This document shows positions 37,014 through 49,845 of a DNA stretch of 64,000 bases, one piece after another (the stretch's first letter is position 1; every line of letters starts with the position of its first letter). The notes below the pieces were generated by a model. That model was given only the letters and a program-made list of their open reading frames with translations. It ran no database searches and was not told the origin of the DNA. The stretch lies in the NCBI GenBank assembly GCA_043809585.1, contig JBDROZ010000039.1, forward strand, positions 12,577 through 76,576, given 5' to 3'. The stretch comes from Candidatus Eiseniibacteriota bacterium (GTDB lineage: Bacteria; Orphanbacterota; Orphanbacteria; Orphanbacterales; Orphanbacteraceae). Made by a program: the position numbers and the translations under genes.

Positions 37014-37511
37014 TCAACAATCTCCCGGGAAGGGGGACACCTCGCCCCCGTCGGCCGTCTCGAGGAGCAATTCGGCCTGGGTCTTCCCGATTCCCGGGTG
37101 TACCAGATCCGGGTCGATTTCCGCAAGGGGCCGGAGGACGAAGCGGCGGTTCGGGATCTCCGGATGGGGAATCACGAGGTCCGGCGGCTCGTCGATGCGC
37201 TCCTCCCCGAAGTAGAGAATGTCCACGTCGATGGTCCGGGGGCCCTTCGGCACCTCCCGCGCGCGACCGAGTTCGGTCTCGACGCGGCGGATCAGTTCGA
37301 GAAGATCCCGGGCGCCCCCTTCGAACGTTCCCCGGGCGACGCAGTTGAGGAACCGGGGCTGATCGGGGACCGGTCCGACCGGGGCGGTCTCGAAGACGGG
37401 CGAGACCCGCTCCGCGCGAAAGGGGCCGGTCTCGAGGGCGCGGAGTGCCCGGCGGAGATGCTCCAGCCGGTCGCCGAGATTGGATCCGATGCCGAGGTGA
37501 ACCCGCGTCAC
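37014..37511 (-). CDS. folK: 2-amino-4-hydroxy-6-hydroxymethyldihydropteridine pyrophosphokinase (HPPK)
   Basis: GTG 37511 (AAGGAG-9 nt; GTGA overlap with the upstream stop) gives VTRVHLGIGSNLGDRLEHLRRAL…IDVDILYFGEE…, 165 aa. Confidence 0.8.
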   Translation of the reverse strand: MTRVHLGIGSNLGDRLEHLRRALRALETGPFRAERVSPVFETAPVGPVPDQPRFLNCVARGTFEGGARDLLELIRRVETELGRAREVPKGPRTIDVDILYFGEERIDEPPDLVIPHPEIPNRRFVLRPLAEIDPDLVHPGIGKTQAELLLETADGGEVSPFPGDC

Positions 37512-38746
37512 CGGGCCCGCTCCTTTCCCCCCGAGTGCATCCAGCCGGCGATCTTCCCCCGCATCCGCGGGAGGCGCGCCAGCCGGTCGAGGGCGATCCG
37601 GATCGCCCCTTCGTCCTCGGTGAGGGAGATCAGGACCCGGTCGTGGCCGAACTCGCCGAAGGAGGAACCGGGGAGCACGGCGATCCCCGCCTTCCGGAGG
37701 AGGAGGGACGCGAACCCGACCGAGTGGTAACCGTGGGGGACCCGGACCCAGAGATGGAATCCGGCGAGGGGCTCTTCCACCTCCCAGCCGAGGGCGCGGA
37801 TCCCCTCCGCGGCGAGGGCCCCCCGGGAACGGAAGACCTCCCGGGCGCGGGCGGTCTCCTCCGGCGGGAGATCGAGGGCCCGGCGGAGGGGGGCCGCGGT
37901 TTCCGCGAGCGAGGGCTGGCCGAGGCGTTCCAGGATGGTCTCGACGGCGAACAGGATCTCCCGGTTCCCCGCGGCGAAGCCGGGCCGCCATCCGCCCACC
38001 TGGTGGAAGGGGGCGAGGGAGTGGAACTCGACGCCCACCTCCTTCCCTTCGGGGTGGTCCAGGAGGCCGGGGGGCCGCTCCCCCCCGAGGGCCGCGGCGG
38101 CGAGCGTCGCGTCGTGGGCGACGAGGATGTTCTTCTCCTTCGCGAACCGGACGAGGTCGGCGAAGAACCCGGGAGGGGCCCACGCCCCGGTGGGCATGTG
38201 GGGGTATCCGGCGAAGAGGAGCCGCGCCCGGTAGGCGGCCTCCGGCTCGATTCGGTCGAGGTCGGGTTGGAATCCCCGCCCCGCGGGGAGAGGGTACGAG
38301 ATCGGCCAACCCCCCGCGACGCCCGCGGAGACCCGGTAGGCCGGATCCCCCGGATCGGGAATGAGCACGACGTCCGAGGGATTCACGAAGGCGAGGGCGA
38401 GAAACCGAAAGCTCTCCGGGATGTGGAGGAGGGGGAGAATCTCGGTCTCGGGATCGAGGCGAACCCCCCGCTCTCGTTCGAGGCGCTCCGCGATCTCCCG
38501 GCGGATCCCCGGAAGGTCCCCCCCGGCGGGGGCCGCGCCCGATGTCTCCGGAAGGGGAAGATCGGGGGCGGTACGGCTGAAGTCCACGATCCGGAAGCCC
38601 CGCGCCTCGGCGCGGCGGCGGACCCGCTTCAGTTCTTCCGACGGGTCGGCGAGAAGGCGGTGGTACCGGTCCGCCTTCTCGATGACGATCCGCCGGCGGA
38701 GGGGGCGGGGCTTCTCCCCCCTCTCCTTGTCGGTCGGTGAGCTCAC
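37508..38746 (-). CDS. Class I/II aminotransferase-fold protein (the expected PLP-binding Lys appears substituted)
   Basis: 412 aa. …IVDFSRTAPDLPLPE… and …AGYPHMPTGAW… match the AAT fold. At the canonical SxSK(T/A)F position the sequence reads EFHSLAPFHQVGGWRPGFAAG, so Pro sits where the Lys is expected. Confidence 0.75.
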   Translation of the reverse strand: MSSPTDKERGEKPRPLRRRIVIEKADRYHRLLADPSEELKRVRRRAEARGFRIVDFSRTAPDLPLPETSGAAPAGGDLPGIRREIAERLERERGVRLDPETEILPLLHIPESFRFLALAFVNPSDVVLIPDPGDPAYRVSAGVAGGWPISYPLPAGRGFQPDLDRIEPEAAYRARLLFAGYPHMPTGAWAPPGFFADLVRFAKEKNILVAHDATLAAAALGGERPPGLLDHPEGKEVGVEFHSLAPFHQVGGWRPGFAAGNREILFAVETILERLGQPSLAETAAPLRRALDLPPEETARAREVFRSRGALAAEGIRALGWEVEEPLAGFHLWVRVPHGYHSVGFASLLLRKAGIAVLPGSSFGEFGHDRVLISLTEDEGAIRIALDRLARLPRMRGKIAGWMHSGGKERAR

Positions 38747-39191
38747 GTTTCTCGCCTCGGTAGGGGTTTCCTCGTCCCCATGAGCCTATCGGCCCGGGCC
38801 GAAGTTTTCAAGATCTCCCTCTGTGGGTGCCCAAAGAACCCTGCAATTCACCAAGTAATCACGAGTTGCCGGGTTGCCCTCCTCGGGCCTGATTCACTGG
38901 TCTTCATTGTGGTGCGAAGGGGGGGGCTCGGAAACGCCTTCTCGATTCCGGCAGGTTCGTGTCTCGACGTGGGGCGCGAACTCGGTTCGCCTTCCGGCGG
39001 CCGGAGCGCACCGCCGGCCCCTGGGGTGAGAAGCGGTCCATGTGAGCTCCCGGGGATTCACATGCCGGGAAGGTCAACAAGGAGTCGGAACGGCAAAGTT
39101 CGCGTTTCTATGCGGAAGGCGAACTGGGATGTTTGTGGTGGACGGACCGGTTTCGGGAAGGATGTCGCTTTCGCCTGGTTTCGTGACGTAG

Positions 39192-39209
39192 ATGTCCCAA
39201 TAGGGACAT
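39192..39209. promoter_or_regulatory. Perfect palindrome ATGTCCCAATAGGGACAT (candidate operator/REP-like site)
   Basis: 7-4-7 inverted repeat, followed by TCGAG. It shares the 12-mer GGGACATTCGAG with the site at 40161-40176. Confidence 0.35.
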
Positions 39210-39261
39210 TCGAGGCGGACGGGGACGCCCTCCGGCCCCCAAAGACCGGGCTATTGTCTGA

Positions 39262-39291
39262 GATGTCACTTCCTTCCAGAAGTGGGACATC
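39262..39291. promoter_or_regulatory. Imperfect palindrome GATGTCACTTCC…GAAGTGGGACATC sharing the GTGGGACAT core
   Basis: Second copy of the motif, about 190 nt upstream of the lipoprotein ORF. Confidence 0.3.
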
Positions 39292-39454
39292 AGGGCCACG
39301 GAGAGGGGCACTGGTGGGCGCCATTACGTTGCGGGCCTTCGCGCAATTTCCGATAAGGACCGTTATCGGTATCAACGGTGGATCGGCTCTGTTAATCTGT
39401 TGGTGGATTATCCTTCCCCGTCCTCCCTTGGGCGGGTCATGCCGGAGGTGAGAA

Positions 39455-40000
39455 ATGAGATGTCAATTGATCGGTTCTGTGGCGGCTTCCCTCGCTGCTA
39501 TGTACTGCTTTGGTCTGGGTTGTGCACAAACCCAAGTTACACCAGCGGCGGTCAAAACTAATTACATCTATCCTCCGCCGGCCCCGAGGGAGGGGGAATG
39601 GCCCATATGGCGGGATGTACCTGTCGAGACAGAGGATTACGATCGTATTTGGAGAACAGTCATCGACGTGGTATCTGAGCGTTTCCCAATAGCTGTTTTG
39701 GATCGAGAGGGTGGCTATATAAGGACCGAATGGAGACCTGACCGCGACCTTATTGGAGATTATGCAAAAGAATACCTCATGCTGTCGGACCAGCGGAAGC
39801 TAGATAAGTACCCATGTGAAAGGTGCGAAACGCGCTTCGTTATCAGGTGCTACCCTGCCGAGAAACGCCTCAGAATGGGGTTGGAAGTCAAGAAAGGCAA
39901 CACGGACAAGCTCTCTCCCGAGCTCTCTCCGGAGAAGATCGCTATCGCCTGGCAAGGAATCCCCCAGGAAATACAGAACCGGCTGCGCGTAACGGAGTAA
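39455..40000 (+). CDS. Hypothetical secreted/lipoprotein-like protein (181 aa) in a lower-GC patch
   Basis: GGAGGTG RBS 4-5 nt before the ATG. Signal peptide MRCQLIGSVAASLAAMYCFGLGCAQTQ. No recognisable domain. Local composition is clearly less GC-rich than the flanks. Confidence 0.65.
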   Translation: MRCQLIGSVAASLAAMYCFGLGCAQTQVTPAAVKTNYIYPPPAPREGEWPIWRDVPVETEDYDRIWRTVIDVVSERFPIAVLDREGGYIRTEWRPDRDLIGDYAKEYLMLSDQRKLDKYPCERCETRFVIRCYPAEKRLRMGLEVKKGNTDKLSPELSPEKIAIAWQGIPQEIQNRLRVTE

Positions 40001-40146
40001 TCTAAGAAAGGATTGAGAATCGGCCGACCATTCGCGCCGCTCCTCGATATGCTTCTGCCTTTACAAACTCGCAGCCCTTAACCTTCTGATAACGCGATTT
40101 ATTCGTAACTTCCCGGGGGGCGTGCCATTTCTGCGGATCCTGATAC

Positions 40147-40170
40147 GTCACACTTTTCGTAAAGTGGGAC
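40147..40170. promoter_or_regulatory. Near-perfect palindrome GTCACACTTT-TCGT-AAAGTGGGAC (third GTGGGACAT-family site)
   Basis: 10-4-10 inverted repeat with one mismatch, about 150 nt downstream of the lipoprotein ORF, inside a 377-nt convergent intergenic gap. Confidence 0.35.
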
Positions 40171-40377
40171 ATTCGAGCAGCAGAAACCCGTGCGGGCGAC
40201 ATTCGCCGAACAGACACTCCTCGATAAAGGGCCACTCCCGGCAGGACCTCCCTCCTCTCCCCTTGATTGTGCATCATAAAGGACGTTATGAGGCACAATG
40301 ATGGTTTCAGCCTCCGGTCCATGCCGGCATCACTCCGGCGGTCGGCTGCATCTCGGAGCGATTCTTCCTCCAAGGCT

Positions 40378-41256
40378 TCAGGCCCCCTCGCGATCCTCGG
40401 CCCAGAGGCGGAGGAAGAGGTCGATCGAGCCGGGCGCGAAACCGGCGTAATGGTTGTTGAAGAAGGCGAAGACGTCCCCCCCGGTCTGGAGTAGGTTCCG
40501 AATCACGGCGATCCATGCCCGGGTCGGACCGGTCCGGTCGACCAGGATCGACTCCCAATCCCCCTTCCGCTCCCCCGCCTCCTTCGCCTCCCGGACGAGT
40601 TTGTCCATCTGCCGGTGATGGCCGAGAAAGCGGAGATAGGCGAAGTCGGCGGTCCGGGGATCGCCCGCCTCGAAGTACCCCTCCGGGGGGGGCATGGTGT
40701 AGTAGTCGGCGAGGACGAGGGCCGCGCCCGCCTCCCGGAGAAGGCTGTAGAGCTCCTCGCCGAGCCAGGTCCGGTTCCGCACCTCCACGGCGCACCGGCC
40801 CGCCTCGGCGAGATGGGGGGCGAACCGCTCGAGCCGCCTTCGGAAGTCGTCCCCCGTCCGGTACTCGTGCTCGTCCCTCCCCTTCGCCACGTACGGGAAC
40901 TGGAAGAGCAGGGGGCCCCGCTTCTCGCCGAGCCGGTCCATGGCGGAGAGGAACGCCGCCCACTCCCCCTCGCAGTTTTCGAGGTAGAGATCGTGGGTGA
41001 TCCTCTTCGGGACCTTGGCGGCGATCTTGAAGCCGTCCGGGGTCTTCCGCGCCCATCCGTCGACGAGTTTCGCCGAGGGGCTCGCGTACCAGGTGGCGTC
41101 GATCTCCACCGCCGGAAGGAGGGCGGAGTAATGGCGGAGAAAGTCGGCCGCCTTCGCTCCCTCGGGATAGAACGGGCCGACCCAGTCGGCGTTGCCGAAG
41201 GAGGAGGTTCCGAGATGGAGGCCGGGGGGTAGACCGGCGAGATCGAATCGAAGCAT
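40378..41256 (-). CDS. DUF72 family protein (YecE-like)
   Basis: 292 aa. …GTSSFGNADWVGPFYP… and …FAFFNNHYAGFAPGS… are DUF72 hallmarks. Confidence 0.85.
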   Translation of the reverse strand: MLRFDLAGLPPGLHLGTSSFGNADWVGPFYPEGAKAADFLRHYSALLPAVEIDATWYASPSAKLVDGWARKTPDGFKIAAKVPKRITHDLYLENCEGEWAAFLSAMDRLGEKRGPLLFQFPYVAKGRDEHEYRTGDDFRRRLERFAPHLAEAGRCAVEVRNRTWLGEELYSLLREAGAALVLADYYTMPPPEGYFEAGDPRTADFAYLRFLGHHRQMDKLVREAKEAGERKGDWESILVDRTGPTRAWIAVIRNLLQTGGDVFAFFNNHYAGFAPGSIDLFLRLWAEDREGA

Positions 41257-41392: not shown

Positions 41393-42001
41393 ATGATTCT
41401 GGAACCGGACAAGATGACCCCGAAGGACCTCTATTTTCTGATGGTCGGGTCGATCGTCCCCCGGCCGATCGCCTTCGTGTCGACGATCAGCGCCGGCGGG
41501 GCCCCGAACCTCGCCCCCATGAGCTTCTTCAACGGCGTCTCCGCCTCTCCGCCGGTGGTGAGCGTCTCGGTCACCCGGCGGCGGGGCGCGAAGAAGGACA
41601 CGGTCCGGAACGCGCTGGAGACGGCCGAGTTCGTGGTGAACGTGGTGGACGAGTCGATCGCGGTCGCGATGAACCGGACGAGCGGCGACTACCCGCCGGA
41701 GGTGAACGAGTTCGAGGTGAGCGGCCTGACGGCGATCCCCTCGGACCTGGTCGCCCCCCCCCGGGTCGCGGAGTCGCCGATCCACTTCGAGTGCCGCCTC
41801 CTCCGGGCCGTCGACGTCGGCGAGGAACCGTCGGTCACCACCCTCCTCCTCGGCCAGGTGGTCCGTTTCCATGTGCGGGACGGCTACCTGAAAGAGGACG
41901 GCCACATCGATCCGGACAAGTTCCACGCCGTCGGCAAGATGGGCGGCCCGCTCTACTGCCGGACCCGAGACCGCTTCGCGATGGAGAGGCCGAAGGTGTG
42001 A
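41393..42001 (+). CDS. Flavin reductase-like FMN-binding (split-barrel) protein
   Basis: Internal ATG 41393 gives MILEPDKMTPKDLYFLMVGSIVPRPIAFVSTIS…NLAPMSFFNGVS…. The upstream 67 codons of the track ORF are noise. Confidence 0.8.
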   Translation: MILEPDKMTPKDLYFLMVGSIVPRPIAFVSTISAGGAPNLAPMSFFNGVSASPPVVSVSVTRRRGAKKDTVRNALETAEFVVNVVDESIAVAMNRTSGDYPPEVNEFEVSGLTAIPSDLVAPPRVAESPIHFECRLLRAVDVGEEPSVTTLLLGQVVRFHVRDGYLKEDGHIDPDKFHAVGKMGGPLYCRTRDRFAMERPKV

Positions 42002-42081
42002 AGAGAGATGGGGGATATTGGATGTGGAATGCGGGTTCCTTTCGGTACCAGATTCTCCCGGAGCAGAGCGGAGGGGTATCT

Positions 42082-42112
42082 GGTTCCGAAAGGACATGGT
42101 TCCGAAAGGACA
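42082..42112 (+). repeat. Direct repeat GGTTCCGAAAGGACA x2 (1-nt spacer)
   Basis: Read directly: 42082-42096 and 42098-42112 are identical 15-mers. Confidence 0.8.
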
Positions 42113-42156
42113 GGTGTGCGGGAAATAGGGTCTCTGGTTAGGAAATCCTACGTGCG

Positions 42157-42500
42157 GCGGGGGGCGGACCGGCATCGGGAGGGACCGGGGCATAGACGGG
42201 GAGCCGTTAATGGTATCCGCAACGCAATGTCCGCGAGCCCGGAGAATGGGAGGGTTTCCTTCCGCAGCACGACGAGCGTCCCAGCCTGCCCCGATCCCTC
42301 CCTCTTCCGGTCCGCCTCCCCGCCGATTTCATGGGATCGCCATCCCCCGGAGCCTGCCCGCGCAGTATCGAATTGTCATCCCCGCGTAGGCGGGGACCCA
42401 GGAAATCCAATTCCGTAGCTCCCCCCCCCCCGTTCGCCCTGAGTGCCGCGGCCGAAGGCCACGGTGTATCGAAGGGTCGGACCGGCGAGAGACATGTGAG
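42157..42500 (-). repeat. Composite structured repeat, inverted copy (order on the plus strand: B', C', A')
   Basis: 42157-42324 is the reverse complement of the about 170-bp B element (TIR GGGGCGGACCGG…CCGGTCCGCC). 42325-42425 is the reverse complement of C (…GGAATTGGATTTCCTGGGTCC CCGCCTACGCGGGG ATGACAATTC…). 42426-42500 is the reverse complement of A (…CCGTGGCCTTCGGCCGCGG CACTCAGGGCGAACGGGGG). Confidence 0.8.
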
Positions 42501-42578
42501 TGTTCATGGCGGTAGTTGGTATTTTGTCTCTGAACTCCCCTAAATTCCCTTGGTCACTTACGGCAGGGAAGCGGCCCA

Positions 42579-44195
42579 TTAGGAGGGCACGGTATCATCG
42601 GGAAACACGATCTTGGCCTGTACTCCTATTTGCCCCAATAGGTAAAGAAGCCCCCCACCATCGATAAGCTCGATAGGCTTTTCGTTGGCAAACTCATGAG
42701 CATCTGGCCCATACCCACTAGTCGAAACCAGTATGCCCTTATTGGCTCCTTCATTAATCATCGTTCCATAGAGGTCTCGAACGGCCGCAACGCCCACCGT
42801 ATTCTTGTACCGCTTGGCCTGAATAACGACCTTCCCACCTACAATGGGCCGCGTATCGAAGGCAATAGCATCGACACCCCCGTCTCGGGATGACTGTGTT
42901 TGTTTGGTGTCGAATCCGAGATGGTCGAACAGATTGCTTATGAGGTTCTCGAATTCAAACGGATCTAATTCATAGAGATTGGGTCGACTCTCGAGGTCGG
43001 CGAGGACATCGCTTGCTTCCACGAAGCGTCGATCAACCATGTTGAAGTCGACTATGGGCTTAACGGCCTGCAGTTGGTCCGCACTCCGAGAAACTTGAGC
43101 ACCCAGATTCCTCAGACAAACCGCCTTGTCGACCCTCGAGAGGTTAACCTCAGAGAAGCGCTCCTTAGTTGTTCTGACAGAAACGAGATGCGGACGGATA
43201 TCGTTCCCCGTGGCCGGATCTACCGCCTGAACAAATCCATTGAAGACTACGACGTCGATATGGTTTCCTTGGTCTGCCTCCAGAACCTCATGGATAGACC
43301 GAAGGCTGACTGCGGCCACGACATCTTGATAGAGAGATCTTAAGTCGCTCTGCTTCGCATCCTTCTCTCGTATCTCATCCTTGCTCTTTACGTAGAAGTA
43401 CTCACTGACGGTCGGCACAACCGAAACATTGGGGAGCTCATACTCAATTACAAGCTCCTTCGATTCTGGGATGTACGCCAATCGGTATTCTTGGGGAAAC
43501 TCCTCGGGGTATTCTGATCGCTCCAGGACCATAGAGGAGTAGGTTACTATCGCCTCAGAATCACCATTGCCGTACGCAACTTGAAACTCGTCTATCTCCT
43601 GATTCCGCTGTCGGACCTTCTCCTGGAATTGCTCTTTCTCCTTCACATATTCGGCTCGCACTTGCCGTATTCTCTCTTCTCGAGCATCGAGCGCTTGCTG
43701 ATACTCTTTAAGTGCCTCTGAGTATTGAGCATCGGCTTCTCGAAGTCGAGACTCGTACTTCGCTCTGGAACCTGGGAGAATCTTTGCTAGACGGTTAGGC
43801 TTTGGTATCTGGCTAAGAAAGGACTCTCGGTCCGGCGGTGTCGGTTCCTCGCTTAGATCCTTCGGAATCTTGAATGACCGAAAGCGCTCTTTCACTCGAA
43901 GGTCACCAAATGAGACTGTATCATCAATCTGAAGTGTGTGTTTCAGAATCTGGGACAACGCCTCGGTTCTAGTGGCAAGGTGCTCGTTCCTCTCGTTGGC
44001 TTCCTCCAAACGACTCTCGGCGTAGAGTTTCTTGGCTTCGCGTACAGCCTGCCCCTGAGCGCGGATCATTGCCTTCTCAAGGAGGTGCAATTCTCTCTGG
44101 CGAGCTTTCTCTCTACGTTCGGCTTCACGAGCGGACCGCGCGGCTTCGCGGGCCATGGCGTTTACTAGGCCGCTGAAAGAACCTCTTCTACCCAT
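42579..44195 (-). CDS. Mrr-type restriction-endonuclease-domain protein with a long N-terminal coiled-coil region (538 aa)
   Basis: The C-terminal about 150 aa (…ELDPFEFENLISNLFDHLGFDTKQTQSSRDGGVDAIAFDTRPIVGGKVVIQAKRYKNTVGVAAVRDLYGTM…) match the Mrr_cat nuclease fold. The N-terminal about 200 aa are charged and heptad-rich. AAGGGGA RBS. Composition is clearly less GC-rich than the chromosome average. Confidence 0.8.
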   Translation of the reverse strand: MGRRGSFSGLVNAMAREAARSAREAERREKARQRELHLLEKAMIRAQGQAVREAKKLYAESRLEEANERNEHLATRTEALSQILKHTLQIDDTVSFGDLRVKERFRSFKIPKDLSEEPTPPDRESFLSQIPKPNRLAKILPGSRAKYESRLREADAQYSEALKEYQQALDAREERIRQVRAEYVKEKEQFQEKVRQRNQEIDEFQVAYGNGDSEAIVTYSSMVLERSEYPEEFPQEYRLAYIPESKELVIEYELPNVSVVPTVSEYFYVKSKDEIREKDAKQSDLRSLYQDVVAAVSLRSIHEVLEADQGNHIDVVVFNGFVQAVDPATGNDIRPHLVSVRTTKERFSEVNLSRVDKAVCLRNLGAQVSRSADQLQAVKPIVDFNMVDRRFVEASDVLADLESRPNLYELDPFEFENLISNLFDHLGFDTKQTQSSRDGGVDAIAFDTRPIVGGKVVIQAKRYKNTVGVAAVRDLYGTMINEGANKGILVSTSGYGPDAHEFANEKPIELIDGGGLLYLLGQIGVQAKIVFPDDTVPS

Positions 44196-44441
44196 AGAAT
44201 CCCCTTGACGAAATCCGATTTGGTACTTTTCTATCTACAGACTGGGTAACAATTGGGGAACACAATGCCAGTCTACTCTCACAACCAATGATCGTGTGTG
44301 CACAGTTACTGCTACAGAACGGATATTGCGCTCCCCGATCATCGGCGCGAGAAGTGCTCGTTCGCCTCCGGCTATCTGCTAACTACTTGGGATTCTAGGT
44401 GTTCGATGGGTCGTGGGTCAATCATTCTCTGTTTCCCGACC

Positions 44442-44738
44442 CCGGTTCATTCCCTTCGACAGGCCCCCGGTTCATCCCCTTCGATACGGACCTCCGGTCC
44501 TACTCAGGACAGGCTTCGATACACCGCGGCCCTTGGCCGCGGCACTCAGGACGAACGGGGGAAGATCGGCGGGGAGGCGGACCGGAGGAGGGAGGGGAGT
44601 GGGGCGGACTTGAACGCTCGTCGTGCGGCGGGAGAAAGCCCTCCCATTCTCCGGGCTCGTACGGGTAGCGTTGCGCGGACCGCCAACAACTCCCCGGTTA
44701 TGCCCCGGCCCCTCCCGATGCCGGTCCGCCCCCCGCCG
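44442..44738 (+). repeat. Composite structured repeat, direct copy 1 (A + B)
   Basis: A (44442-44560): CTTCGATAC GGACCTCCGGTCC TACTCAGGAC AGG CTTCGATAC ACCGCGGCCCTTGGCCGCGG CACTCAGGAC GAACGGGGG. B (44571-44738) starts GGGGAGGCGGACCGGAGG and ends CCGGTCCGCCCCCCGCCG. Confidence 0.8.
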
Positions 44739-44780
44739 CACGCAGCAGATTGCGACTGTCCTCGGCCACCTTCTCCCCTG

Positions 44781-45029
44781 TTCATCCCCTTCGATACGGA
44801 CCTTCGGTCCTACTCAGGACAGGCTTCGATACGATCCTCCCTCCGGTCGGATCACTCAGGACGAACGGTGACGGGGGCCACGGGAAATGTACATGATACC
44901 TTCGGTTTCGCCGCCCCCTTCGACAGGATCAGGACGGGCTTCGATTCACCGCGCATTGCCGCCCCCGTCGACAGGCTCAGGACAGGCTTCGATACGGCGC
45001 CGGGGGCGCCTACTCAGGACGAACGGGGA
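44781..45029 (+). repeat. Two further A-type units (hairpin plus YACTCAGGAC…CTTCGATAC modules) between copy 1 and mazF
   Basis: 44781-44877 and 44914-45029 repeat the CTTCGATAC / GC-hairpin / ACTCAGGACGAACGG pattern with different hairpin sequences (for example GGCGCCGGGGGCGCC). Confidence 0.7.
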
Positions 45030-45038
45030 ATGGCATCC

Positions 45039-45380
45039 CTACGCCGCGAACATCTCCCGGAGAACGGCCAGCGACAAAGCCGTCGCCTTCGGCGACAGAC
45101 GACCGAGGCGGCGGACGAGGCGATCCCGGTCCACCGTGCGGATCTGATCGAGCACCACATGGCCGGAGCACCCCCCGAACCGGCAGGGCACTCGAAAGGG
45201 ATAACCGTGAGATCCGGTCGTGAGCGGTGCCACGATGACCGTGCGGAGATGCCCGTTCAACTCGTCCGGTGAAACGACGACGCAGGGCCGGGTCTTCCGG
45301 ATCTCCTCGCCCCGGGCGGGATCGAGGGCGATCAGGTAAACCTCACCCCGCCGAATCCCGCTCTCCTTCACCATTCCCAC
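45039..45380 (-). CDS. mazF: Type II toxin, MazF/PemK family endoribonuclease
   Basis: 113 aa. …RGEVYLIALDPARGEEIRKTRPCVVVSPDELN…VIVAPLTT… is the PemK signature. Confidence 0.85.
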   Translation of the reverse strand: MGMVKESGIRRGEVYLIALDPARGEEIRKTRPCVVVSPDELNGHLRTVIVAPLTTGSHGYPFRVPCRFGGCSGHVVLDQIRTVDRDRLVRRLGRLSPKATALSLAVLREMFAA

Positions 45381-45616
45381 TCCTCCTCGTCGAACCGGGT
45401 CGGAGCCGGAGGAATCACCAGGAGGTCCTCCCCTCTCTCCCGCAGGGCCTCAGCCCCCTCCGCCCAGCCGGCGCGGATTCCTGCGGCCGAAGCGATGACG
45501 ATCGCTCCGCCCTGAACACGGATCTCGACTTCCTCCGAGAGTCCGGCCTCCTCGATCAGCGGCTTCGGAATCCGCACGCCCCGTGAATTCCCGATGCGAA
45601 CCAAGCGTGTCTTCAT
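45368..45616 (-). CDS. mazE: Type II antitoxin, MazE/AbrB (SpoVT-AbrB) family
   Basis: 82 aa. MKTRLVRIGNSRGVRIPKPLIEEAGL… is a swapped-hairpin signature. Acidic tail. Overlaps mazF by 13 nt. GGAGGGG RBS. Confidence 0.8.
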   Translation of the reverse strand: MKTRLVRIGNSRGVRIPKPLIEEAGLSEEVEIRVQGGAIVIASAAGIRAGWAEGAEALRERGEDLLVIPPAPTRFDEEEWEW

Positions 45617-45629
45617 GAGACCGCCCCTC

Positions 45630-45650
45630 CTATGTAATTACATAGTAATT
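45630..45650. promoter_or_regulatory. Palindromic operator-like site CTATGTAATTACATAG (+ATTACATAGTAAT) immediately upstream of mazE
   Basis: Perfect 16-bp palindrome 14 nt upstream of the mazE ATG. The only AT-rich patch in this intergenic region. Confidence 0.5.
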
Positions 45651-45836
45651 CCGTGTGCGGCACCTGTCAAGCAACGATCTCTGAAGACTGAAGACCGGCT
45701 GCCTCCCCTCCGATAGCACTCCGGAGTGAGCGGGGGACCGACCCTCCATGCGGAGAAGACGAAGCCCACGTTCCGCGAAAACGGGCGGCGTCCCATGGAC
45801 GATCCGGGGATCCGACTGTAAACTGTCTGTCGGGAG

Positions 45837-46406
45837 GTGCCTAGCATGCGGTTGATTCTCAAGATCGCGCTCTTGGCCGTGGCGACCCTCGCAATTCAAT
45901 GTACTTCCGGAAGCGGCCCTACAGATTGGGTCCCTGATTTTGACCAGGCGAAGTGGGATGATCTGGAGGAAGCTGCCAAGACGGTACGGTTGGGCGACAC
46001 CTTCAAACTGCGAGTGGGCCGGACGGCCTACATTTCGGGAGCGTACCTGTGGGTCGTCTTCGCGGATGTCCCATCAGACGGTCGTTGCCCGATCGATGGA
46101 TCGTTCACGTGCTTTTGGGAGGGTGTCGCCTTCGTCGACCTATGGGTGCGCCAGGACATCCCGAACAGAGCCCCGGGAGAACCCGTAGAGCTCGTGGTCC
46201 ACACCACGGACACCGGCCCGTACTCGAAACACGTGGACCACGAGGCATACACGCTGACCCTGGGCGGGCTCGTGCCGTACCCGACGTACAAGGAGGACGG
46301 CATCAATCCTCAGTATCCTGGCCTGTTCCAGGTTCCACAGCTCGGCGAGTACATCGTGACGCTGACGGTAACAAGGGCCGCCCCCGGGTCCCCCGCCGCG
46401 GACTAA
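45837..46406 (+). CDS. Hypothetical secreted/lipoprotein-like protein (189 aa)
   Basis: GGGAGG RBS. Signal peptide MPSMRLILKIALLAVATLAIQCTSG. No recognised domain. Lower GC than the flanks. Confidence 0.6.
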   Translation: MPSMRLILKIALLAVATLAIQCTSGSGPTDWVPDFDQAKWDDLEEAAKTVRLGDTFKLRVGRTAYISGAYLWVVFADVPSDGRCPIDGSFTCFWEGVAFVDLWVRQDIPNRAPGEPVELVVHTTDTGPYSKHVDHEAYTLTLGGLVPYPTYKEDGINPQYPGLFQVPQLGEYIVTLTVTRAAPGSPAAD

Positions 46407-46506
46407 TCCAGCGTGAAAGCGGCGGCAGGTCGTTGCTCCGCCCGAAATCGCAGTTTCGTCCCCCTGATCCGACTGCCATCCCCACGCCTCTGCTCCCCCC
46501 GCCTCG

Positions 46507-46906
46507 CCCCCTTCGATACGGACCTCCGGTCCTACTCAGCACAGGCTTCGACAAGGCGCCGAGGGCGCCTACTCAGGACGAACGGGGAGGGGAACTACGG
46601 AATTAGATTTCCTGGATCCTCGCCTACGCGAGGATGACAATTGGACAGTGCGCGGGGCAAGCACCGCGGGGATGACAAGGGAAGCAAGGCCGTGTCGTCC
46701 CCGGGGGACCTTTGCCGCCAGGGCTAAGGGGACACGGCGGGGAGGCGGACCGGAGGAGGGAGGGGAGTGGGGCGGACTTGAACGCTCGTCGTGCGGCGGG
46801 AGAAAGCCCTCCCATTCTCCGGACTCGCGGAGGTGGCGTTGCGGAAGGCATCAAGAACTCCCCGGTTATGCCCCACCCCCTCCCGATGCCGGTCCGCCCC
46901 CCGCCG
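46507..46906 (+). repeat. Composite structured repeat, direct copy 2 (A + C + B)
   Basis: A 46507-46590. C 46591-46737 (GGAATTAGATTTCCTGGATCC TCGCCTACGCGAGG ATGACAATTGG … GCGGGG ATGACAAGGG …CCAGGGCTAAGGGGACACGGC). B 46738-46906, near-identical to 44571-44738. Confidence 0.8.
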
Positions 46907-46936
46907 TACGCAGAAGATGGTGACTGTCCCTGGTTG

Positions 46937-47258
46937 CCCTTCGATACGGACCTCCGGTCCTACTCAGGACGAACGGGGAGGGAGCATCACGGAATTGGAT
47001 TTCCTGGATCCCCTGCGCGGGGATGACAAGGGAAACAGGGCCGTGTTGTCCTCGGGGGACCTTTCGCGCCAGGGCTAAGGGGACACGGCGGGGAGGCGGA
47101 CCGGAGGAGGGAGGGGAGTGGGGCGGACTTGAACGCTCGTCGTGCTGCGGAAGGAAGCCCTCCCATTCTCCGGGCTCGCAGAGGTAGCGTTGCGGAAGGC
47201 ATCAAGAACTCCCCGGTTATGCCCCGCCCCCTCCCGATGCCGGTCCGCCTCCCCGCCG
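46937..47258 (+). repeat. Composite structured repeat, direct copy 3 (short A + C + B), in tandem with copy 2
   Basis: A 46937-46978 (internal module deleted between the two CTCAGGAC repeats). C 46979-47089. B 47090-47258. Confidence 0.8.
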
Positions 47259-47402
47259 TGCAGAACAAACAAGTGGCTGTCCCTGGATGCTCACTCGACC
47301 GTCATTTCATCACTGTGAACGAAAGGCGCGGCTCATTCGAAACGGACCCGGTAATCCGCTGCGCGACTGCCGAGCACTGCAGCGGACAGCCGCAGTCAGG
47401 CC

Positions 47403-47454
47403 CTGCCCGTCCTACCTGCCCGTCCTACCTGCCCGTCCTACCTGCCCGTCCTAC
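47403..47454. repeat. Perfect tandem repeat CTGCCCGTCCTAC x4 (13-bp unit)
   Basis: Read directly. Four exact units ending 10 nt from the stop codon of the xdh-family large-subunit gene. Confidence 0.9.
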
Positions 47455-47463
47455 CCCATCCCC

Positions 47464-49845
47464 CTACATCTTCCCCACCGCGCGAAGCACCCGCTCCGGT
47501 GTGAACGGGAGTTCCCGGAGGCGGACGCCGAGCGCGTGCTTCAATGCGTTGCCGACGGCCGGGGCGGGACCGTTCACCGGGATCTCGGCGATCGCCTTCA
47601 CCCCGAAGGGGCCGGTCGGCTCGTACGTTTCGACGAAGATCGTCTTCATCTTCGGCATGCCCTTCGACTTCAGGATCTTGTAGTCGATGAAGCCGACGTT
47701 CGCCGGGCGCCCCTCGCCGTCGAACATCAGTTCCTCCACCAGCGCCGCGCCGAGCCCCATCGAGACCGCGCCGTGCACCTGCCCCTCCGCGAGCTTCGGC
47801 GAGAGGATCGTCCCCGCGTCGACCGCCGTCACGAACTCCACCACCCGGATCTCCCCCGTCTCCATGTCCACCTCGATATCCGCGAACTGCGCCGCGAAAG
47901 GGGGCGGGCTGACCGGCGACACGTGCGACGCCGTCTTCTCCACCTGCGTCTTCTTCTTGTAGGCGATGAACATCGCCACCTCCCGGAGGGGCGTCTCCCC
48001 CCCCGAGGCCGCCGACATCACCTTGCGATCCTCCAGACGTAGATCGGCCGCCTTCTCGCCGATCATCTCCGCCGCGGCGTCCAGGATCGAATCGCGGACT
48101 TCCTCCGCCGCCCGGAGCGCGGCGCCGCCCGAGACATACGTCGTGCTCGACGCGTACGCCCCCGAGTCGAAGGGGGTCAGGTCCGTGTCCGCCGCGTAGA
48201 CCGTCACATCCTCCACGCCGATCCCGAGGGTCTCCGCGACGATCTGGGCGATCACCGTGTCCCCCCCCGTACCGAGGTCCGCCGCGCCGATCATCAGCGT
48301 CACCGAACCATCTTCGTTCAACTTCACCGTCGCCCCCGCCGTGTCGATACCCGCCACACCGCTCCCCTGGGAGAGACAGCACATGCCGACCCCCTTCTTG
48401 ATGAGCGGATTCCGGGCGTTCTCCTCGGCATAACGCTTCCGCTTCTCCCGCCAGCCGATCGCCTCCGCCCCCTTCTCGATGCACTCCCGGAGGCCGCAGC
48501 TCTCGATCTTCCACGCCGACCGCTCGTCCTCCGGCACGTTCGACGCCTTCACTTCATAGATGTGGGGGGAGAGCTCGTCTGCGTCCCCCTCGCGCACCGT
48601 GGTGGCCAGCCGAAAATCGACAGGGTCCATGCCGAGCCTCTCCGCCACCTCGTCCATGTGGCACTCGAGGGCGAACGCCCCCTGAGGCGTTCCGTATCCC
48701 CGCATGGCGCCCGCCGGCGGCAGGTTCGTGTAAACGGCGTCGAACTTGTAGCGCATGTTCGGGCAGCGGTAGCGGGGGAGATTCTTGTTCCCCGTGTTCG
48801 TCGGCACCGTGGGACTGTGGGAGCCGTACGCCCCCGCGTCGACGAGAGCGACCATCTCCATGGCCGTCAGCGTGCCGTCCTTCTTTACGCCCACCTTCAC
48901 GTCGATGGACATGGAGTGCCGGCACCGGACCGCGTTCAGGTCCTCGAACCGGGAAAGTTCCAAACGAACGGGCCGCCCCGAGGCGAGGGTGAGGGCCGCG
49001 GCGACATCCTCGAGGACCATCTCCTGCTTGCCCCCGAAACCGCCGCCGATCCGCGGCTTGATCACCCGGATCCGCCCGACCGGAAGGCCGAGGGCCTGCC
49101 CGATCTGGCGGCGCGTGTGGAACGGAACTTGGGTCGTGCAGATGACGGTCAGCCGCCCGTCGTCGTCCAGATAACAGACCGCCCCGTGCAGCTCCATCTG
49201 GGCGTGCTGCACCCGGGGGGAGAAGTAGGTCCCCTCGACCACCAGGTCCGCCTCGGCGAAGCCTCTCGCCGGATCCCGGAGCGTGCAGTCGACGGCGGCG
49301 CAGCGGTTCCGCGCCGGGTCCTCGGCCCGCACGATGTCCGGCTCGTCGTGAACCACCGGCGCCCCTTCCCGGAGCCCCTCCTCGGGCGTGAGCACCGCGG
49401 GAAGAACCTCGTAGTCGACCCGGATTCGGCGGAGCGCCTCGGCGGCGACCTCCTCCGACTCGGCCGCCACCGCCGCGACCCGGTCCCCCACGTGCCGGAC
49501 CTTGGCATCGAAGAGGAAATAGTCGTACGGGGAAGGCTCGACGTAATCCTGGCCCGCCCGCGTATAGGCGACCCGGGGGAACCGGCCGGGATCGTTCTCG
49601 CTCCACGGCCGGTCGCCGCGCACGTTCTCGTGGGTGAGCAGGGCGTGAACGCCGGGGAGGGCCGCCGCCGCGGAGACGTCGATCGAGCGAATCCGCGCGT
49701 GGGCGTGGGGGCTGCCGAGGATCTTCGCGACGAGCATCCCCTTTTGCGGGAAATCGTCCGTGAAAGCGGGGGCGCCGGTCACCAGTTCCCGGCCGTCCAC
49801 CTTCCGGACGTCCCGTCCGATCACGTGGTAGTACTTCCGGCTCAC
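47464..49845 (-). CDS. Xanthine dehydrogenase/aldehyde oxidase-family molybdopterin-binding large subunit
   Basis: 793 aa. Aldehyde oxidase/XDH a/b hammerhead and MoCo-binding domains (…GGGFGGKQE…, …QVHGAVSMGLGAAL…). Confidence 0.9.
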   Translation of the reverse strand: MSRKYYHVIGRDVRKVDGRELVTGAPAFTDDFPQKGMLVAKILGSPHAHARIRSIDVSAAAALPGVHALLTHENVRGDRPWSENDPGRFPRVAYTRAGQDYVEPSPYDYFLFDAKVRHVGDRVAAVAAESEEVAAEALRRIRVDYEVLPAVLTPEEGLREGAPVVHDEPDIVRAEDPARNRCAAVDCTLRDPARGFAEADLVVEGTYFSPRVQHAQMELHGAVCYLDDDGRLTVICTTQVPFHTRRQIGQALGLPVGRIRVIKPRIGGGFGGKQEMVLEDVAAALTLASGRPVRLELSRFEDLNAVRCRHSMSIDVKVGVKKDGTLTAMEMVALVDAGAYGSHSPTVPTNTGNKNLPRYRCPNMRYKFDAVYTNLPPAGAMRGYGTPQGAFALECHMDEVAERLGMDPVDFRLATTVREGDADELSPHIYEVKASNVPEDERSAWKIESCGLRECIEKGAEAIGWREKRKRYAEENARNPLIKKGVGMCCLSQGSGVAGIDTAGATVKLNEDGSVTLMIGAADLGTGGDTVIAQIVAETLGIGVEDVTVYAADTDLTPFDSGAYASSTTYVSGGAALRAAEEVRDSILDAAAEMIGEKAADLRLEDRKVMSAASGGETPLREVAMFIAYKKKTQVEKTASHVSPVSPPPFAAQFADIEVDMETGEIRVVEFVTAVDAGTILSPKLAEGQVHGAVSMGLGAALVEELMFDGEGRPANVGFIDYKILKSKGMPKMKTIFVETYEPTGPFGVKAIAEIPVNGPAPAVGNALKHALGVRLRELPFTPERVLRAVGKM

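What the first reader, a model, noticed from the sequence alone, without database searches (positions are those of the whole stretch)
42002..47460. Repeat-rich accessory island: Mrr-type nuclease gene bracketed by about 300-bp inverted copies of a composite structured repeat, plus mazEF and a lipoprotein
The segment between the flavin-reductase gene and the xdh-family cluster has almost no conventional coding density apart from four genes: an Mrr-domain protein with an N-terminal coiled coil, mazF, mazE and a hypothetical lipoprotein. All four are lower in GC than the core. It is dominated by a modular repeat made of sub-elements A, B and C. One copy (42157-42500) is in inverted orientation on the 3' side of the Mrr-like gene. 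A second copy (44442-44738) sits in direct orientation on its 5' side. The nuclease gene and its promoter are therefore enclosed by long inverted repeats, the geometry of an invertible or excisable cassette, although no recombinase is in the window. Two more full copies follow in tandem (46507-47258), and extra A-units abut the mazF 3' end. This looks like a defence island assembled or mobilised by a previously uncharacterised repeat family.
Basis: seen in the sequence. Interest (0 to 1): 0.7.

Follow-up and report, generated by a model that had tools for sequence, protein, structure and literature searches.

The report
Hairpin-repeat mosaic holding defence genes
A 5.5-kb insertion between two housekeeping genes of a Candidatus Eisenbacteria genome carries a restriction nuclease, a mazEF toxin-antitoxin pair and a small secreted protein, all embedded in three kinds of hairpin repeats, one of which belongs to a very widespread and apparently undescribed family that elsewhere brackets tiny GIY-YIG nuclease genes.

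Summary
The repeats are real and, within this 64-kb window, occur only at 42148-47290. Relatives have the flavin-reductase and xdh genes as convergent neighbours 10 or 272 bp apart, so 42007-47460 is a lineage-specific insertion. The genes are ordinary island cargo: a full-length PADLOC mREase_IV (Mrr-family) nuclease, mazEF and a secreted protein, all with GC3 well below the core.

The "composite repeat" resolves into three parts:
- **A:** a roughly 45-nt REP-like hairpin with conserved flanks. The same motif hit more than 120 metagenome contigs (31-71% GC) with covarying stems. In those contigs it mostly forms inverted doublets, which in 10 independent contexts enclose a roughly 92-aa GIY-YIG gene.
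- **B:** contains a TGTC-tagged REP of the published CGTC (dRS3-like) type.
- **C:** a 175-nt hairpin found nowhere else.

Mrr is bracketed by a matched inverted pair of A units, in the same geometry as the GIY-YIG mini-elements. mazEF plus the secreted protein is bracketed by a matched direct pair.

There is no recombinase in the window, and the long inverted arms are only 81-92% identical, so an invertible switch is unlikely. My best reading is a REP/MITE-type mosaic at an insertion hot spot, where the repeats act as recombination or insertion substrates.

The parts
42007..47460 (.). Lineage-specific island between the stop codons of two convergent core genes: flavin reductase (ends 42001) and the xdh-family large subunit (ends 47464).
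   Evidence: In relatives the two genes are 10 bp (L139) or 272 bp (L133) apart. BLAST of the island against these loci aligns only up to 42006 and from 47461 onward.
42148..42327 (-). C1: a 175-180-nt long hairpin and the most diverged copy (81-84% to the others).
42330..42430 (-). B1. It contains a TGTC-tagged REP, read on the + strand at 42374-42400: TGTC-ATCCCCGC-GTAG-GCGGGGAC-CCA.
   Evidence: Sequence, alignment, and features as defined in PMC3733652.
42430..42477 (-). A1: an A unit lying 3' of the Mrr gene on that gene's own strand. It is the reciprocal best match of A2b.
   Evidence: Covariance-model score 48.7 bits, E 4.9e-11. 92% identity over 48 nt to 44514-44561 (pair I5).
42579..44195 (-). 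Mrr-family type IV (modification-dependent) restriction endonuclease, 538 aa. GC 0.52, GC3 0.55.
   Evidence: Pfam Mrr_cat E 1.6e-32 at residues 408-519. PADLOC mREase_IV E 2e-93 covering residues 4-522. More than 7500 homologues, the best non-self at 60% identity. The D...QxK motif (GGVDAIAF...VVIQAKRY) is read from the sequence.
44392..44421 (-). Sigma-70-like promoter match upstream of Mrr, inside the bracketed segment.
   Evidence: TTGACC-18-TAGAAT, 10 of 12 positions. This is a consensus match only.
44440..44558 (+). A hairpin-less A-like unit, then A2a (44475-44510) and A2b (44511-44558).
   Evidence: A2b scores 47.3 bits, E 1.2e-10.
44565..44765 (+). C2 long hairpin (44565-44740) plus its conserved 25-nt tail.
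44775..45029 (+). A3a and A3b (44785-44868), two hairpin-less A-like units (44910-44985), and A4 (44984-45026). The block ends 9 nt before the mazF stop codon.
   Evidence: A3b has E 2.6e-7 and A4 has E 3.5e-6. A4 is the reciprocal best match of A5b.
45039..45616 (-). mazF (45039-45380) and mazE (45368-45616), overlapping by 13 nt. A promoter-like site lies at 45642-45670.
   Evidence: PemK_toxin E 5e-28 and MazE_antitoxin E 1.1e-8. Promoter scan.
45846..46406 (+). Small secreted or lipoprotein-like protein, 186 aa, of unknown family.
   Evidence: No Pfam or PADLOC hit. Signal-like N-terminus MRLILKIALLAVATLAIQC is read from the sequence. GC3 0.75.
46497..46935 (+). Module A5a-A5b (46497-46588), then B3 (46589-46732, with a TGTC REP at 46613-46639 and a second partial one), then C3 (46733-46908) plus its tail.
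46936..47290 (+). Module A6 (46936-46976), then B4 (46977-47083, with a TGTC REP at 47005-47028), then C4 (47084-47260) plus its tail. This is a tandem copy of the previous module (91-94% identity).

Best explanation
The segment is an insertion hot spot between two convergent housekeeping genes. A mosaic of small resident palindromic repeats of REP/MITE type has built up there, together with three horizontally acquired, self-promoted gene modules: a type IV Mrr-family restriction nuclease, a mazEF toxin-antitoxin pair and a secreted protein.

**The three repeat kinds**
- **A** is a REP-like hairpin, RTCCTTCGATAC-[variable stem-loop]-YACTCAGGACGAACGG. In other genomes it occurs mainly as inverted doublets, and these form the two ends of roughly 0.4-kb mini-elements that encode a roughly 92-aa GIY-YIG nuclease.
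- **B** carries a TGTC-tagged REP of the dRS3/CGTC type.
- **C** is a locus- or lineage-specific 175-nt hairpin with arms of about 40 bp.

**Inferred mechanism.** The hairpin units act as recombination or insertion substrates, so incoming DNA ends up bracketed by matched copies of a unit.
- The Mrr block lies between an inverted pair, A1 and A2b.
- The mazEF plus secreted-protein block lies between a direct pair, A4 and A5b. That is what integration of a circle through one A doublet would produce.

Tandem duplication then multiplied the A-(B)-C modules. Once resident, the genes act as ordinary defence and addiction functions. The hairpins probably also serve as terminators or insulators between the convergent core genes.

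**Shown:** the anatomy, the empty sites, the family assignments, the matched pairs and the GIY-YIG link in other genomes.

**Inferred:** that the repeats mediated the insertions, and any present-day mobility.
For: - **Empty sites** in two relative lineages, with homology ending at the two stop codons.
- **Composition.** Cargo GC3 is 0.55-0.81 against 0.89-0.94 for the core, while the repeat blocks have host-like GC of 0.665.
- **Location.** All repeats are confined to the island within the 64 kb.
- **A-unit family.** There are 105 distinct hairpin interiors. In a 19-sequence subset all 6 stem pairs covary, with 0 of 500 shuffles reaching the observed covariation score.
- **Doublet geometry.** Inverted '-+' pairs dominate: 53 at <= 120 nt and 11 at 121-600 nt, of which 9 hold a GIY-YIG ORF.
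- **GIY-YIG link.** The ORFs match PF01541 at E 1e-15 to 1e-19. They occur in 18 A-selected loci representing 10 independent contexts, and in none of 272 kb of control sequence. The layout is always rc(A)-gene-A.
- **Window pairs.** A1/A2b and A4/A5b are reciprocal best matches and bracket the two gene blocks. Relative to its own strand, Mrr has the same rc(A)-gene-A layout.
- **B** matches the published definition of CGTC/TGTC REPs (tag, AT-initiated 8-bp stem, 4-5-nt loop, CCA tail), with compensatory stem changes between copies.
- **Precedent.** REP clusters interleaved with other repeats in mosaic intergenic regions are documented (PMC3733652).
- **Defence context.** One Mrr homologue also sits next to TA genes: L143 has CopG and RelB/YafQ neighbours.
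Against: - The rest of the source genome could not be read, so I do not know whether A, B or C are dispersed there, or whether a GIY-YIG (or RAYT) gene exists in it.
- No target-site duplications or sharp insertion junctions were identified.
- The window A units are mostly in tandem (head-to-tail) arrays, whereas the family elsewhere is mostly inverted doublets.
- C was found nowhere else. It accounts for most of the repeat length and its role is unexplained.
- Bracketing by matched copies could also arise from segmental duplication, without any insertion mechanism.
- Only 3-4 anecdotal non-GIY-YIG 'cargo' cases were seen between inverted A units elsewhere.
- The sequence is a MAG contig, so the tandem copy number could be mis-assembled.
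Confidence: 0.58

Rival explanations
1. Cargo-carrying mobile cassettes. The A units are the functional ends of a family of tiny elements mobilised in trans by a GIY-YIG nuclease encoded elsewhere in the genome. The rc(A)-Mrr-A segment (42430-44558) would be a derivative in which a defence nuclease replaced the GIY-YIG gene, still able or recently able to move as a unit.
For: - The layout matches that of the GIY-YIG mini-elements.
- A1 and A2b are a matched pair with the same hairpin, unlike the other units.
- The segment carries its own promoter-like site.
- A few other inverted A pairs elsewhere enclose non-GIY-YIG genes, including a PLD-family nuclease.
Against: - No GIY-YIG gene is in the window.
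- Close Mrr homologues elsewhere lack A units.
- There is no second copy of the cassette and no empty/filled pair for the cassette itself.
- The A1/A2b arms are only 84-92% identical.
- GIY-YIG enzymes are known as homing or structure-specific nucleases, not transposases (my own knowledge).
- The GIY-YIG gene may simply home into A doublets.
Confidence: 0.18
2. Invertible or excisable switch. Recombination between the roughly 300-bp inverted composites flips or removes the Mrr gene together with its promoter.
For: Long inverted arms do enclose the gene and a promoter-like site.
Against: - No recombinase or invertase is in the 64-kb window or in the syntenic flanks of relatives.
- The arms are 81-92% identical and interrupted by B1 on one side only, which makes them poor substrates.
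- Flipping a self-promoted gene would not switch it on or off.
Confidence: 0.06
3. The repeats, particularly C or the whole A-B-C module, are genes for a multicopy structured non-coding RNA associated with defence or TA loci.
For: - C folds into a very stable hairpin (-116 kcal/mol, z -5.7).
- The outer stem and the apical loop CCCTCCCATTCTCCGG are invariant in all four copies.
- Some pairs change by G-U or compensatory steps.
- The A hairpins covary.
Against: - The opposite strand folds equally well (z -6.0), as expected for a DNA palindrome.
- There is no Rfam match even at E <= 1.
- No promoter or terminator signals flank C.
- Several inner pairs are broken in C1.
- No homologue was found in genomes, plasmids, phages or predicted proteins.
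- A units occur in both orientations relative to neighbouring genes.
Confidence: 0.1
4. Assembly artefact. The repeat modules or their order are chimeric or collapsed products of short-read MAG assembly.
For: The source is a MAG. The contig of a 90%-identical relative ends 33 bp after the xdh stop codon, exactly at the island border. The tandem modules are 91-94% identical.
Against: Both core flanks are joined through the island on one 170.9-kb contig. The copies differ enough (6-19%) to be assembled separately. The gene blocks are intact ORFs with matched flanking units.
Confidence: 0.05

Closest known systems
REP/BIME clusters and the REPIN-RAYT ('REPtron') system
   Same: - A is a short palindromic unit with a conserved unpaired flank. 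Read on the opposite strand it is ...CCTGA-GTAG-[stem-loop], that is, GTAG-tagged in the type-a units.
- Elsewhere A occurs mainly as inverted doublets like REPINs, also as tandem clusters, mostly between genes.
- A small nuclease gene is found bracketed by two inverted units, as RAYT genes are bracketed by REPs (PMC3733652).
   Different: - The bracketed gene encodes a GIY-YIG nuclease, not a Y1/HUH RAYT.
- The conserved flanks are much longer (12 nt plus 16 nt) and are shared across contigs from 31 to 71% GC, whereas REP families are usually lineage-specific.
- Several window units have GTGC or GTGA instead of GTAG.
- Copy number in the source genome is unknown.
CGTC-tagged REPs, including Neisseria dRS3, and Neisseria intergenic mosaic elements (NIMEs)
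   Same: - The B REP has a (C/T)GTC tag, an 8-bp stem starting with AT, a 4-5-nt loop and a CCA tail, as defined in PMC3733652.
- Like NIMEs, the region is a large mosaic intergenic tract in which different repeat families are interleaved.
   Different: The host is Candidatus Eisenbacteria, not a proteobacterium. Only four units were seen, all at one locus. The c4 copy has a 6-bp stem. Here the mosaic also contains intact defence and TA genes.
MITE or ERIC-type long palindromic intergenic elements
   Same: C is 175 nt long and has arms of about 40 bp that are invariant in all copies, with a more variable interior. It is present in several copies.
   Different: No target-site duplication, no cognate IS and no copy outside this locus were found. 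C always follows an A unit in a fixed order and carries a conserved 25-nt tail outside the hairpin.
Defence islands or islets with type IV restriction and toxin-antitoxin modules
   Same: A solitary Mrr-family mREase_IV gene sits next to mazEF in a variable region with atypical composition. A 60%-identical homologue sits next to CopG and RelB/YafQ genes.
   Different: The island is very small, has no integrase or other mobility gene, and about 35% of its length is hairpin repeats.
Integron cassette arrays (attC sites, CALINs)
   Same: Self-contained gene blocks are each followed by a structured, imperfectly palindromic repeat with a variable centre. A TA cassette lies in the opposite orientation.
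   Different: There is no integrase. The A closing stem reads 5'-CCGTTCG...CGAACGG-3', which is the reverse polarity of attC R''/R' (RYYYAAC...GTTRRRY). The repeats also occur in both orientations and in gene-less tandems (reading against my own knowledge of attC).

Membership tests
GTAG-tagged REP (PMC3733652) | Short stem-loop unit (20-40 bp) that is repeated. | tested here: met
   At least 9 A units have 5-9-bp stems. Stems covary across the family.
GTAG-tagged REP (PMC3733652) | Unpaired GTAG (or a close variant) at one end of the stem. | tested here: inconclusive
   Type-a units and A4/A5b read CTGA-GTAG-G... on the opposite strand. A1 and A2b have GTGC and A3b has GTGA.
GTAG-tagged REP (PMC3733652) | High copy number, dispersed in extragenic regions of the genome. 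| not testable with these tools
   The source genome is not in the searchable collections. Within the window there are 0 copies outside the island.
GTAG-tagged REP (PMC3733652) | Association with a RAYT (Y1/HUH transposase) gene flanked by the repeats. | tested here: not met
   No such gene is in the window. In other loci the gene flanked by the repeats is GIY-YIG, PF01541.
CGTC-tagged REP / dRS3-like (PMC3733652) | Terminal CGTC (or TGTC/CCTC) tag, an 8-9-bp stem starting with AT, a 4-5-nt loop and a CCA tail. | tested here: met
   - 42374-42400: TGTC-ATCCCCGC-GTAG-GCGGGGAC-CCA.
- 46613-46639 (reverse complement): TGTC-ATCCTCGC-GTAG-GCGAGGAT-CCA.
- 47005-47028 (reverse complement): TGTC-ATCCCC-GCGCA-GGGGAT-CCA, which has a 6-bp stem.

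From, judged against the criteria quoted.
MITE | Terminal inverted repeats and small size. | tested here: met
   C is 175 nt with roughly 40-bp complementary arms.
MITE | Target-site duplications, and a parent IS with the same inverted repeats. | tested here: not met
   The flanks of the four C copies share a conserved tail rather than a duplication. No related sequence was found in any collection.
Site-specific invertible segment | An adjacent invertase or recombinase gene. | tested here: not met
   The 30 largest ORFs outside the island are housekeeping, and the flanks are syntenic with relatives.
Site-specific invertible segment | Both orientations present in the population. | not testable with these tools
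   No reads are available.
Integron cassette array | An IntI integrase, or attC sites with R''/R' boxes (RYYYAAC...GTTRRRY). | tested here: not met
   No integrase was found. The A closing stem has the opposite polarity (sequence). The attC consensus is taken from my own knowledge.
Type IV restriction enzyme, Mrr family (PADLOC mREase_IV) | An Mrr_cat PD-(D/E)xK domain and a full-length match to the family profile. | tested here: met
   PF04471 E 1.6e-32. PDLC03663 E 2e-93, residues 4-522 matched to profile positions 15-525 of 544.
Type IV restriction enzyme, Mrr family (PADLOC mREase_IV) | Cleavage of modified DNA only. | not testable with these tools
   This needs biochemistry.
MazEF type II toxin-antitoxin | Adjacent PemK/MazF toxin and MazE/AbrB-type antitoxin genes in one operon. 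| tested here: met
   PF02452 E 5e-28 and PF04014 E 1.1e-8. The genes overlap by 13 nt, with the antitoxin first.
Any Rfam RNA family | Score at or above the family's gathering threshold. | tested here: not met
   There were 0 hits in the window. Only one chance-level hit appeared at E <= 1. Nothing lay over A units in 20 other loci.

The most novel reading that the evidence does not exclude
The A unit marks a widespread and, as far as I could find, undescribed class of miniature bacterial elements. In this class a conserved hairpin module (RTCCTTCGATAC-stem/loop-YACTCAGGACGAACGG) forms the two inverted ends of a roughly 0.4-kb unit encoding a GIY-YIG nuclease, a GIY-YIG counterpart of the REP/RAYT partnership. 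Gene-less doublets would be its REPIN-like offspring. The ends can also come to bracket other genes, so the rc(A)-Mrr-A segment in this window would be a defence-gene cassette built on, or captured by, such ends.
Probability: 0.25. Interest if true: 0.75.

Novelty: new variant of a known kind. Interest (0 to 1): 0.55.

Why it matters
The island itself is ordinary in kind: small defence/TA islets at variable sites are common. Two things go further.

First, it gives a clean case in which each acquired gene block is bracketed by a matched pair of small hairpin repeats. This bears on the open question of how gene-sized pieces of DNA enter hot spots that have no integrase.

Second, following one sub-repeat outside the window revealed a hairpin module conserved across contigs from 31 to 71% GC. 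It is absent from Rfam and from the literature I could search, and it repeatedly flanks a tiny GIY-YIG nuclease gene. If that pairing is functional, it would be a second nuclease-plus-REP partnership alongside RAYT/REPIN. It would also explain a very common source of spurious ORFs in GC-rich genomes (peptides such as ...FDKLRTNG... / ...PFVLSLSK...; that these are common is my own recollection, not tested here).

Tried and rejected
- **Rfam.** The window at gathering thresholds, the island at E <= 1 and 20 loci carrying A units gave nothing relevant.
- **tRNA/tmRNA scan.** None found.
- **Genome scan for C.** A scan of genome contigs with the invariant 20-mer of the C arm gave 10 single hits in unrelated phyla. 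BLAST showed these to be matches of only 20-32 nt, meaning chance.
- **Viral contigs.** Scans with the C and A words gave 0 hits.
- **Exact-protein look-ups.** The Mrr, flavin-reductase and DUF72 proteins, and the 100%-identical xdh protein, are not on record, so the source contig could not be extended.
- **Protein search for C.** A synthetic query joining six open translated stretches of C3, one per reading frame, found nothing among 5.8 billion predicted proteins.
- **B+C against plasmids and phages.** No match.
- **A doublet against plasmids.** It hit unannotated intergenic DNA of five sphingomonad plasmids. The window's own A block did not match.
- **Literature.** Searches for the motif as DNA, RNA or peptide strings, and for GIY-YIG together with REP terms, found no description.
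- **Rejected by reading the sequence:**
  - CRISPR remnants. The B hairpin resembles a type I-E repeat, but the spacing is 40 nt and it fits the CGTC-REP definition.
  - Integron attC. The polarity is wrong and there is no integrase.
  - Hammerhead or other small ribozyme cores. No core motifs are present and Rfam is negative.
- **Gene-neighbour census.** A crude census around A units showed no orientation bias (13/11/11/11). It is noisy in GC-rich DNA.

Full report
**Observation.** The repeat finder on 41500-48000, a self-BLAST of the three repeat blocks against all 64 kb and an alignment of the four composite copies give the following map.

| Coordinates | Strand | Content |
|---|---|---|
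| 42148-42477 | - | C1-B1-A1 |
| 44440-44765 | + | A2a-A2b-C2 |
| 44775-45029 | + | A3a-A3b, two hairpin-less A-like units, A4 |
| 46497-46935 | + | A5a-A5b-B3-C3 |
| 46936-47290 | + | A6-B4-C4 |

No part of any block matches anything outside 42140-47290 in the window. A covariance model of unit A built from unrelated sequences finds six matches with E <= 3.5e-4, all in the island, and the next best hit has E = 0.19. The order is always A, then optionally B, then C.

**The genes.**
- ORF 42579-44195(-) has an Mrr_cat domain (E 1.6e-32). It matches the PADLOC type IV methyl-directed restriction profile mREase_IV over its whole length (E 2e-93).
- That protein belongs to a very large family of roughly 534-aa proteins. 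More than 7500 have E <= 1e-20, and the best non-self match is 60% identical, from Acidobacteriota, Binatia, Anaerolineae and others.
- mazF (45039-45380) and mazE (45368-45616) are standard.
- ORF 45846-46406 has a signal-like N-terminus but a non-canonical lipobox, and belongs to no family I could detect.
- GC3 is 0.55, 0.81, 0.76 and 0.75 for these four genes, against 0.89-0.94 for the neighbouring core genes. The repeat blocks have the host's GC, 0.665 against 0.676.
- Sigma-70-like promoter matches lie upstream of Mrr and of mazE.

**It is an insertion.** The xdh-family large subunit (47464-49845) is 100% identical to a protein of a Candidatus Eisenbacteria MAG on a 170,868-bp contig. In two lineages of relatives, with orthologues 77-78% identical, this gene and the flavin-reductase gene are convergent neighbours. 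They are separated by 272 bp in L133-L138 and by 10 bp in L139-L142, and the wider gene order matches the window. BLAST of the island against these loci aligns only up to window 42006 and from 47461 onward. The contig of a 90%-identical relative stops 33 bp after the xdh stop codon. The 5.45 kb is therefore accessory DNA at a variable site. None of the 30 largest ORFs elsewhere in the window encodes a recombinase, transposase, RAYT or GIY-YIG protein. They are nuo genes, dnaE, panBC, nadAC and similar.

**Unit A.**
- *Sequence.* A is CCTTCGATAC, a variable hairpin, then YACTCAGGACGAACGG.
Their GC ranges from 0.31 to 0.71.
- *Structure.* The 135 matches have 105 different interiors, nearly all of which fold as a hairpin. 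In an ungapped subset of 19, all six stem pairs show changes on both sides. 89.5% of cells are paired, against 20-54% when the partner column is slid, and 0 of 500 shuffles reach the observed covariation score. Conservation extends three bases upstream (RTC) and not downstream.
- *Not previously described, as far as I could find.* Nothing in Rfam matches. Text searches for the motif found no description.
- *Resemblance to REPs.* On the opposite strand the unit reads ...CGTCCTGA-GTAG-[stem-loop]-GTATCGAAG. That resembles the GTAG-tagged REPs of Di Nocera et al. 2013 (PMC3733652), but with far longer conserved flanks.
- *Annotated example.* In sphingomonad plasmids the doublet lies in unannotated intergenic DNA, for example between an ABC-transporter gene and queG.

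**A units and GIY-YIG genes.** In the 120 loci, adjacent units are mostly inverted '-+' doublets.

| Pair type and spacing | Count | Note |
|---|---|---|
| '-+', <= 120 nt | 53 | gene-less doublets |
| '-+', 121-600 nt | 11 | 9 enclose an ORF of about 92 aa |
| '+-', <= 120 nt | 14 | |

The enclosed ORFs are GIY-YIG catalytic domains (PF01541, E 1e-15 to 1e-19) with no NCBIfam name. An HMM search finds them in 18 of the A-selected loci and in none of 272 kb of control sequence that includes the window. After merging orthologous loci, this leaves 10 independent genomic contexts. The anatomy is constant. It runs CCGTTCGTCCTGAGTAG[hairpin]CGTATCGAAGGAC, 6-10 nt, the start codon, the GIY-YIG ORF, and then the right-hand unit, which the ORF tail enters as ...ARK-SFDT.... 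This parallels RAYT genes flanked by REPs, but with a different nuclease fold. I found no paper describing it. Whether the nuclease mobilises the hairpins or merely homes into doublets is open.

**Units B and C.** B contains a unit that meets the published definition of CGTC-tagged REPs, the family that includes Neisseria dRS3. The definition is a tag that is often TGTC, an 8-9-bp stem beginning with AT, a 4-5-nt loop and a CCA tail.
- c1: TGTC-ATCCCCGC-GTAG-GCGGGGAC-CCA.
- c3: TGTC-ATCCTCGC-GTAG-GCGAGGAT-CCA, with compensatory changes relative to c1.
- c4: TGTC-ATCCCC-GCGCA-GGGGAT-CCA.

C is a 175-nt hairpin with the following properties.
- The MFE is -116 kcal/mol with z -5.7. The other strand folds equally well, z -6.0.
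- The outer roughly 30 bp and the apical CCCTCCCATTCTCCGG are invariant in all four copies. The inner stem shows G-U steps, two compensatory changes and some broken pairs.
- It carries a conserved 25-nt tail and no target-site duplication.
- It was found nowhere else: not in species-representative genomes, the 120 A loci, plasmids or phages, or 5.8 billion predicted proteins searched with six joined translated stretches of C3.

**Matched pairs around the gene blocks.** Pairwise comparison of the nine window A units shows three groups.
- Type a (A2a, A3a, A5a, A6): 86-97% identical.
- A1 with A2b: reciprocal best matches, 92% over the 48-nt core, with the same hairpin.
- A4 with A5b: reciprocal best matches, 93% over 54 nt, with the same hairpin.

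A1 and A2b are inverted and bracket Mrr. Relative to the Mrr coding strand the layout is rc(A)-gene-A, the same as in the GIY-YIG mini-elements. A4 and A5b are direct and bracket mazEF plus the secreted-protein gene. A4 ends 9 nt before the mazF stop codon, and B3-C3 follow A5b. This is the pattern expected if a circle carrying one A doublet integrated by recombination into a resident A-(B)-C module. Homologues of the Mrr gene elsewhere (L143, L144) carry none of these repeats, so the gene family does not travel with them.

**Interpretation.** The best-supported picture is a mosaic of resident REP/MITE-type repeats at a hot spot between convergent genes. It is comparable to BIME clusters or Neisseria mosaic intergenic regions. 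Defence and TA genes have been inserted into it, with A units serving as recombination or insertion substrates, followed by tandem duplication of modules.
- An invertible switch is unlikely. There is no recombinase, the arms are 81-92% identical and asymmetric, and the gene carries its own promoter.
- A structured-RNA reading of C cannot be excluded, but it has no positive support beyond stability.
- The more novel reading is that A ends define a GIY-YIG-linked class of mini-elements able to carry cargo such as Mrr. This fits the geometry and a few other cases: a PLD-family nuclease between inverted units in L106, and weaker cases in L028 and L088. It rests on few observations, and there is no GIY-YIG gene in the window.

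**Limits.** The rest of the source genome could not be read, so the genome-wide copy number and the presence of a cognate nuclease are unknown. No reads were available. The sequence is a MAG contig, so tandem copy numbers may be inexact.

Noticed in passing
L011-L130 (metagenome loci), e.g. L021:8064-8444, L026:166-544, L085:6314-6744, L096:5804-6184: The A-unit motif occurs in more than 120 metagenome contigs of 31-71% GC. It mostly forms inverted doublets. In 10 independent contexts the doublet encloses a roughly 92-aa GIY-YIG (PF01541) ORF whose tail runs into the right-hand unit. This is a REP/RAYT-like arrangement with a different nuclease, and I could not find it described.
   Followed up: yes
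window 38750-40378: A second low-GC stretch (0.52-0.60) lies between the aminotransferase gene (37508-38746) and the DUF72 gene (40378-41256). It holds a lipoprotein-like ORF at 39455-40000 (GC3 0.57, no Pfam hit). In relative L139 the same two genes are only about 600 bp apart. It is probably another small accessory insertion, and it has none of the A/B/C repeats.
   Followed up: partly
window 47402-47466: A 13-nt unit, CCTGCCCGTCCTA, is repeated about 4.5 times in tandem immediately downstream of the xdh stop codon, at the right-hand edge of the island.
   Followed up: no
window 42037-42111: Just after the flavin-reductase stop codon there are two direct copies of GGTTCCGAAAGGAC plus an inverted partner (TCCTTTCGGTACC). 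Together they form a hairpin unrelated to A, B or C, possibly the gene's terminator.
   Followed up: no
L133:12380-12651 and L135:3740-3949: In one lineage of relatives, the 272-bp spacer at the same junction holds a called 69-aa ORF on the strand opposite to xdh. The site therefore carries different small content in different lineages.
   Followed up: partly
L132:9531-9564: The contig of the closest relative (xdh 90% identical) ends 33 bp after the xdh stop codon, exactly where the island begins in the window. This suggests an assembly break at repeats there too.
   Followed up: partly
L024:3854-4972, L021:8077-9168, L026:183-1307, L096:5083-6171, L012:423-1709: In one group of orthologous loci the GIY-YIG reading frame stays open through the right-hand A unit, into a downstream region of about 270 aa that looks like a SpoU/TrmH-type methyltransferase. 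That resemblance comes from reading the sequence and was not checked with Pfam. The mini-element therefore sits directly upstream of, and in frame with, a housekeeping gene.
   Followed up: no
L106:692-1603, L028:1772-3680, L088:168-1704: Inverted A-unit pairs 0.8-1.8 kb apart enclose genes other than GIY-YIG. These are a PLD-family nuclease (PF13091, E 1e-22, with weak DrmC-like PADLOC hits), a weak sub-threshold DUF4145 match, and an ORF of unknown family.
   Followed up: partly
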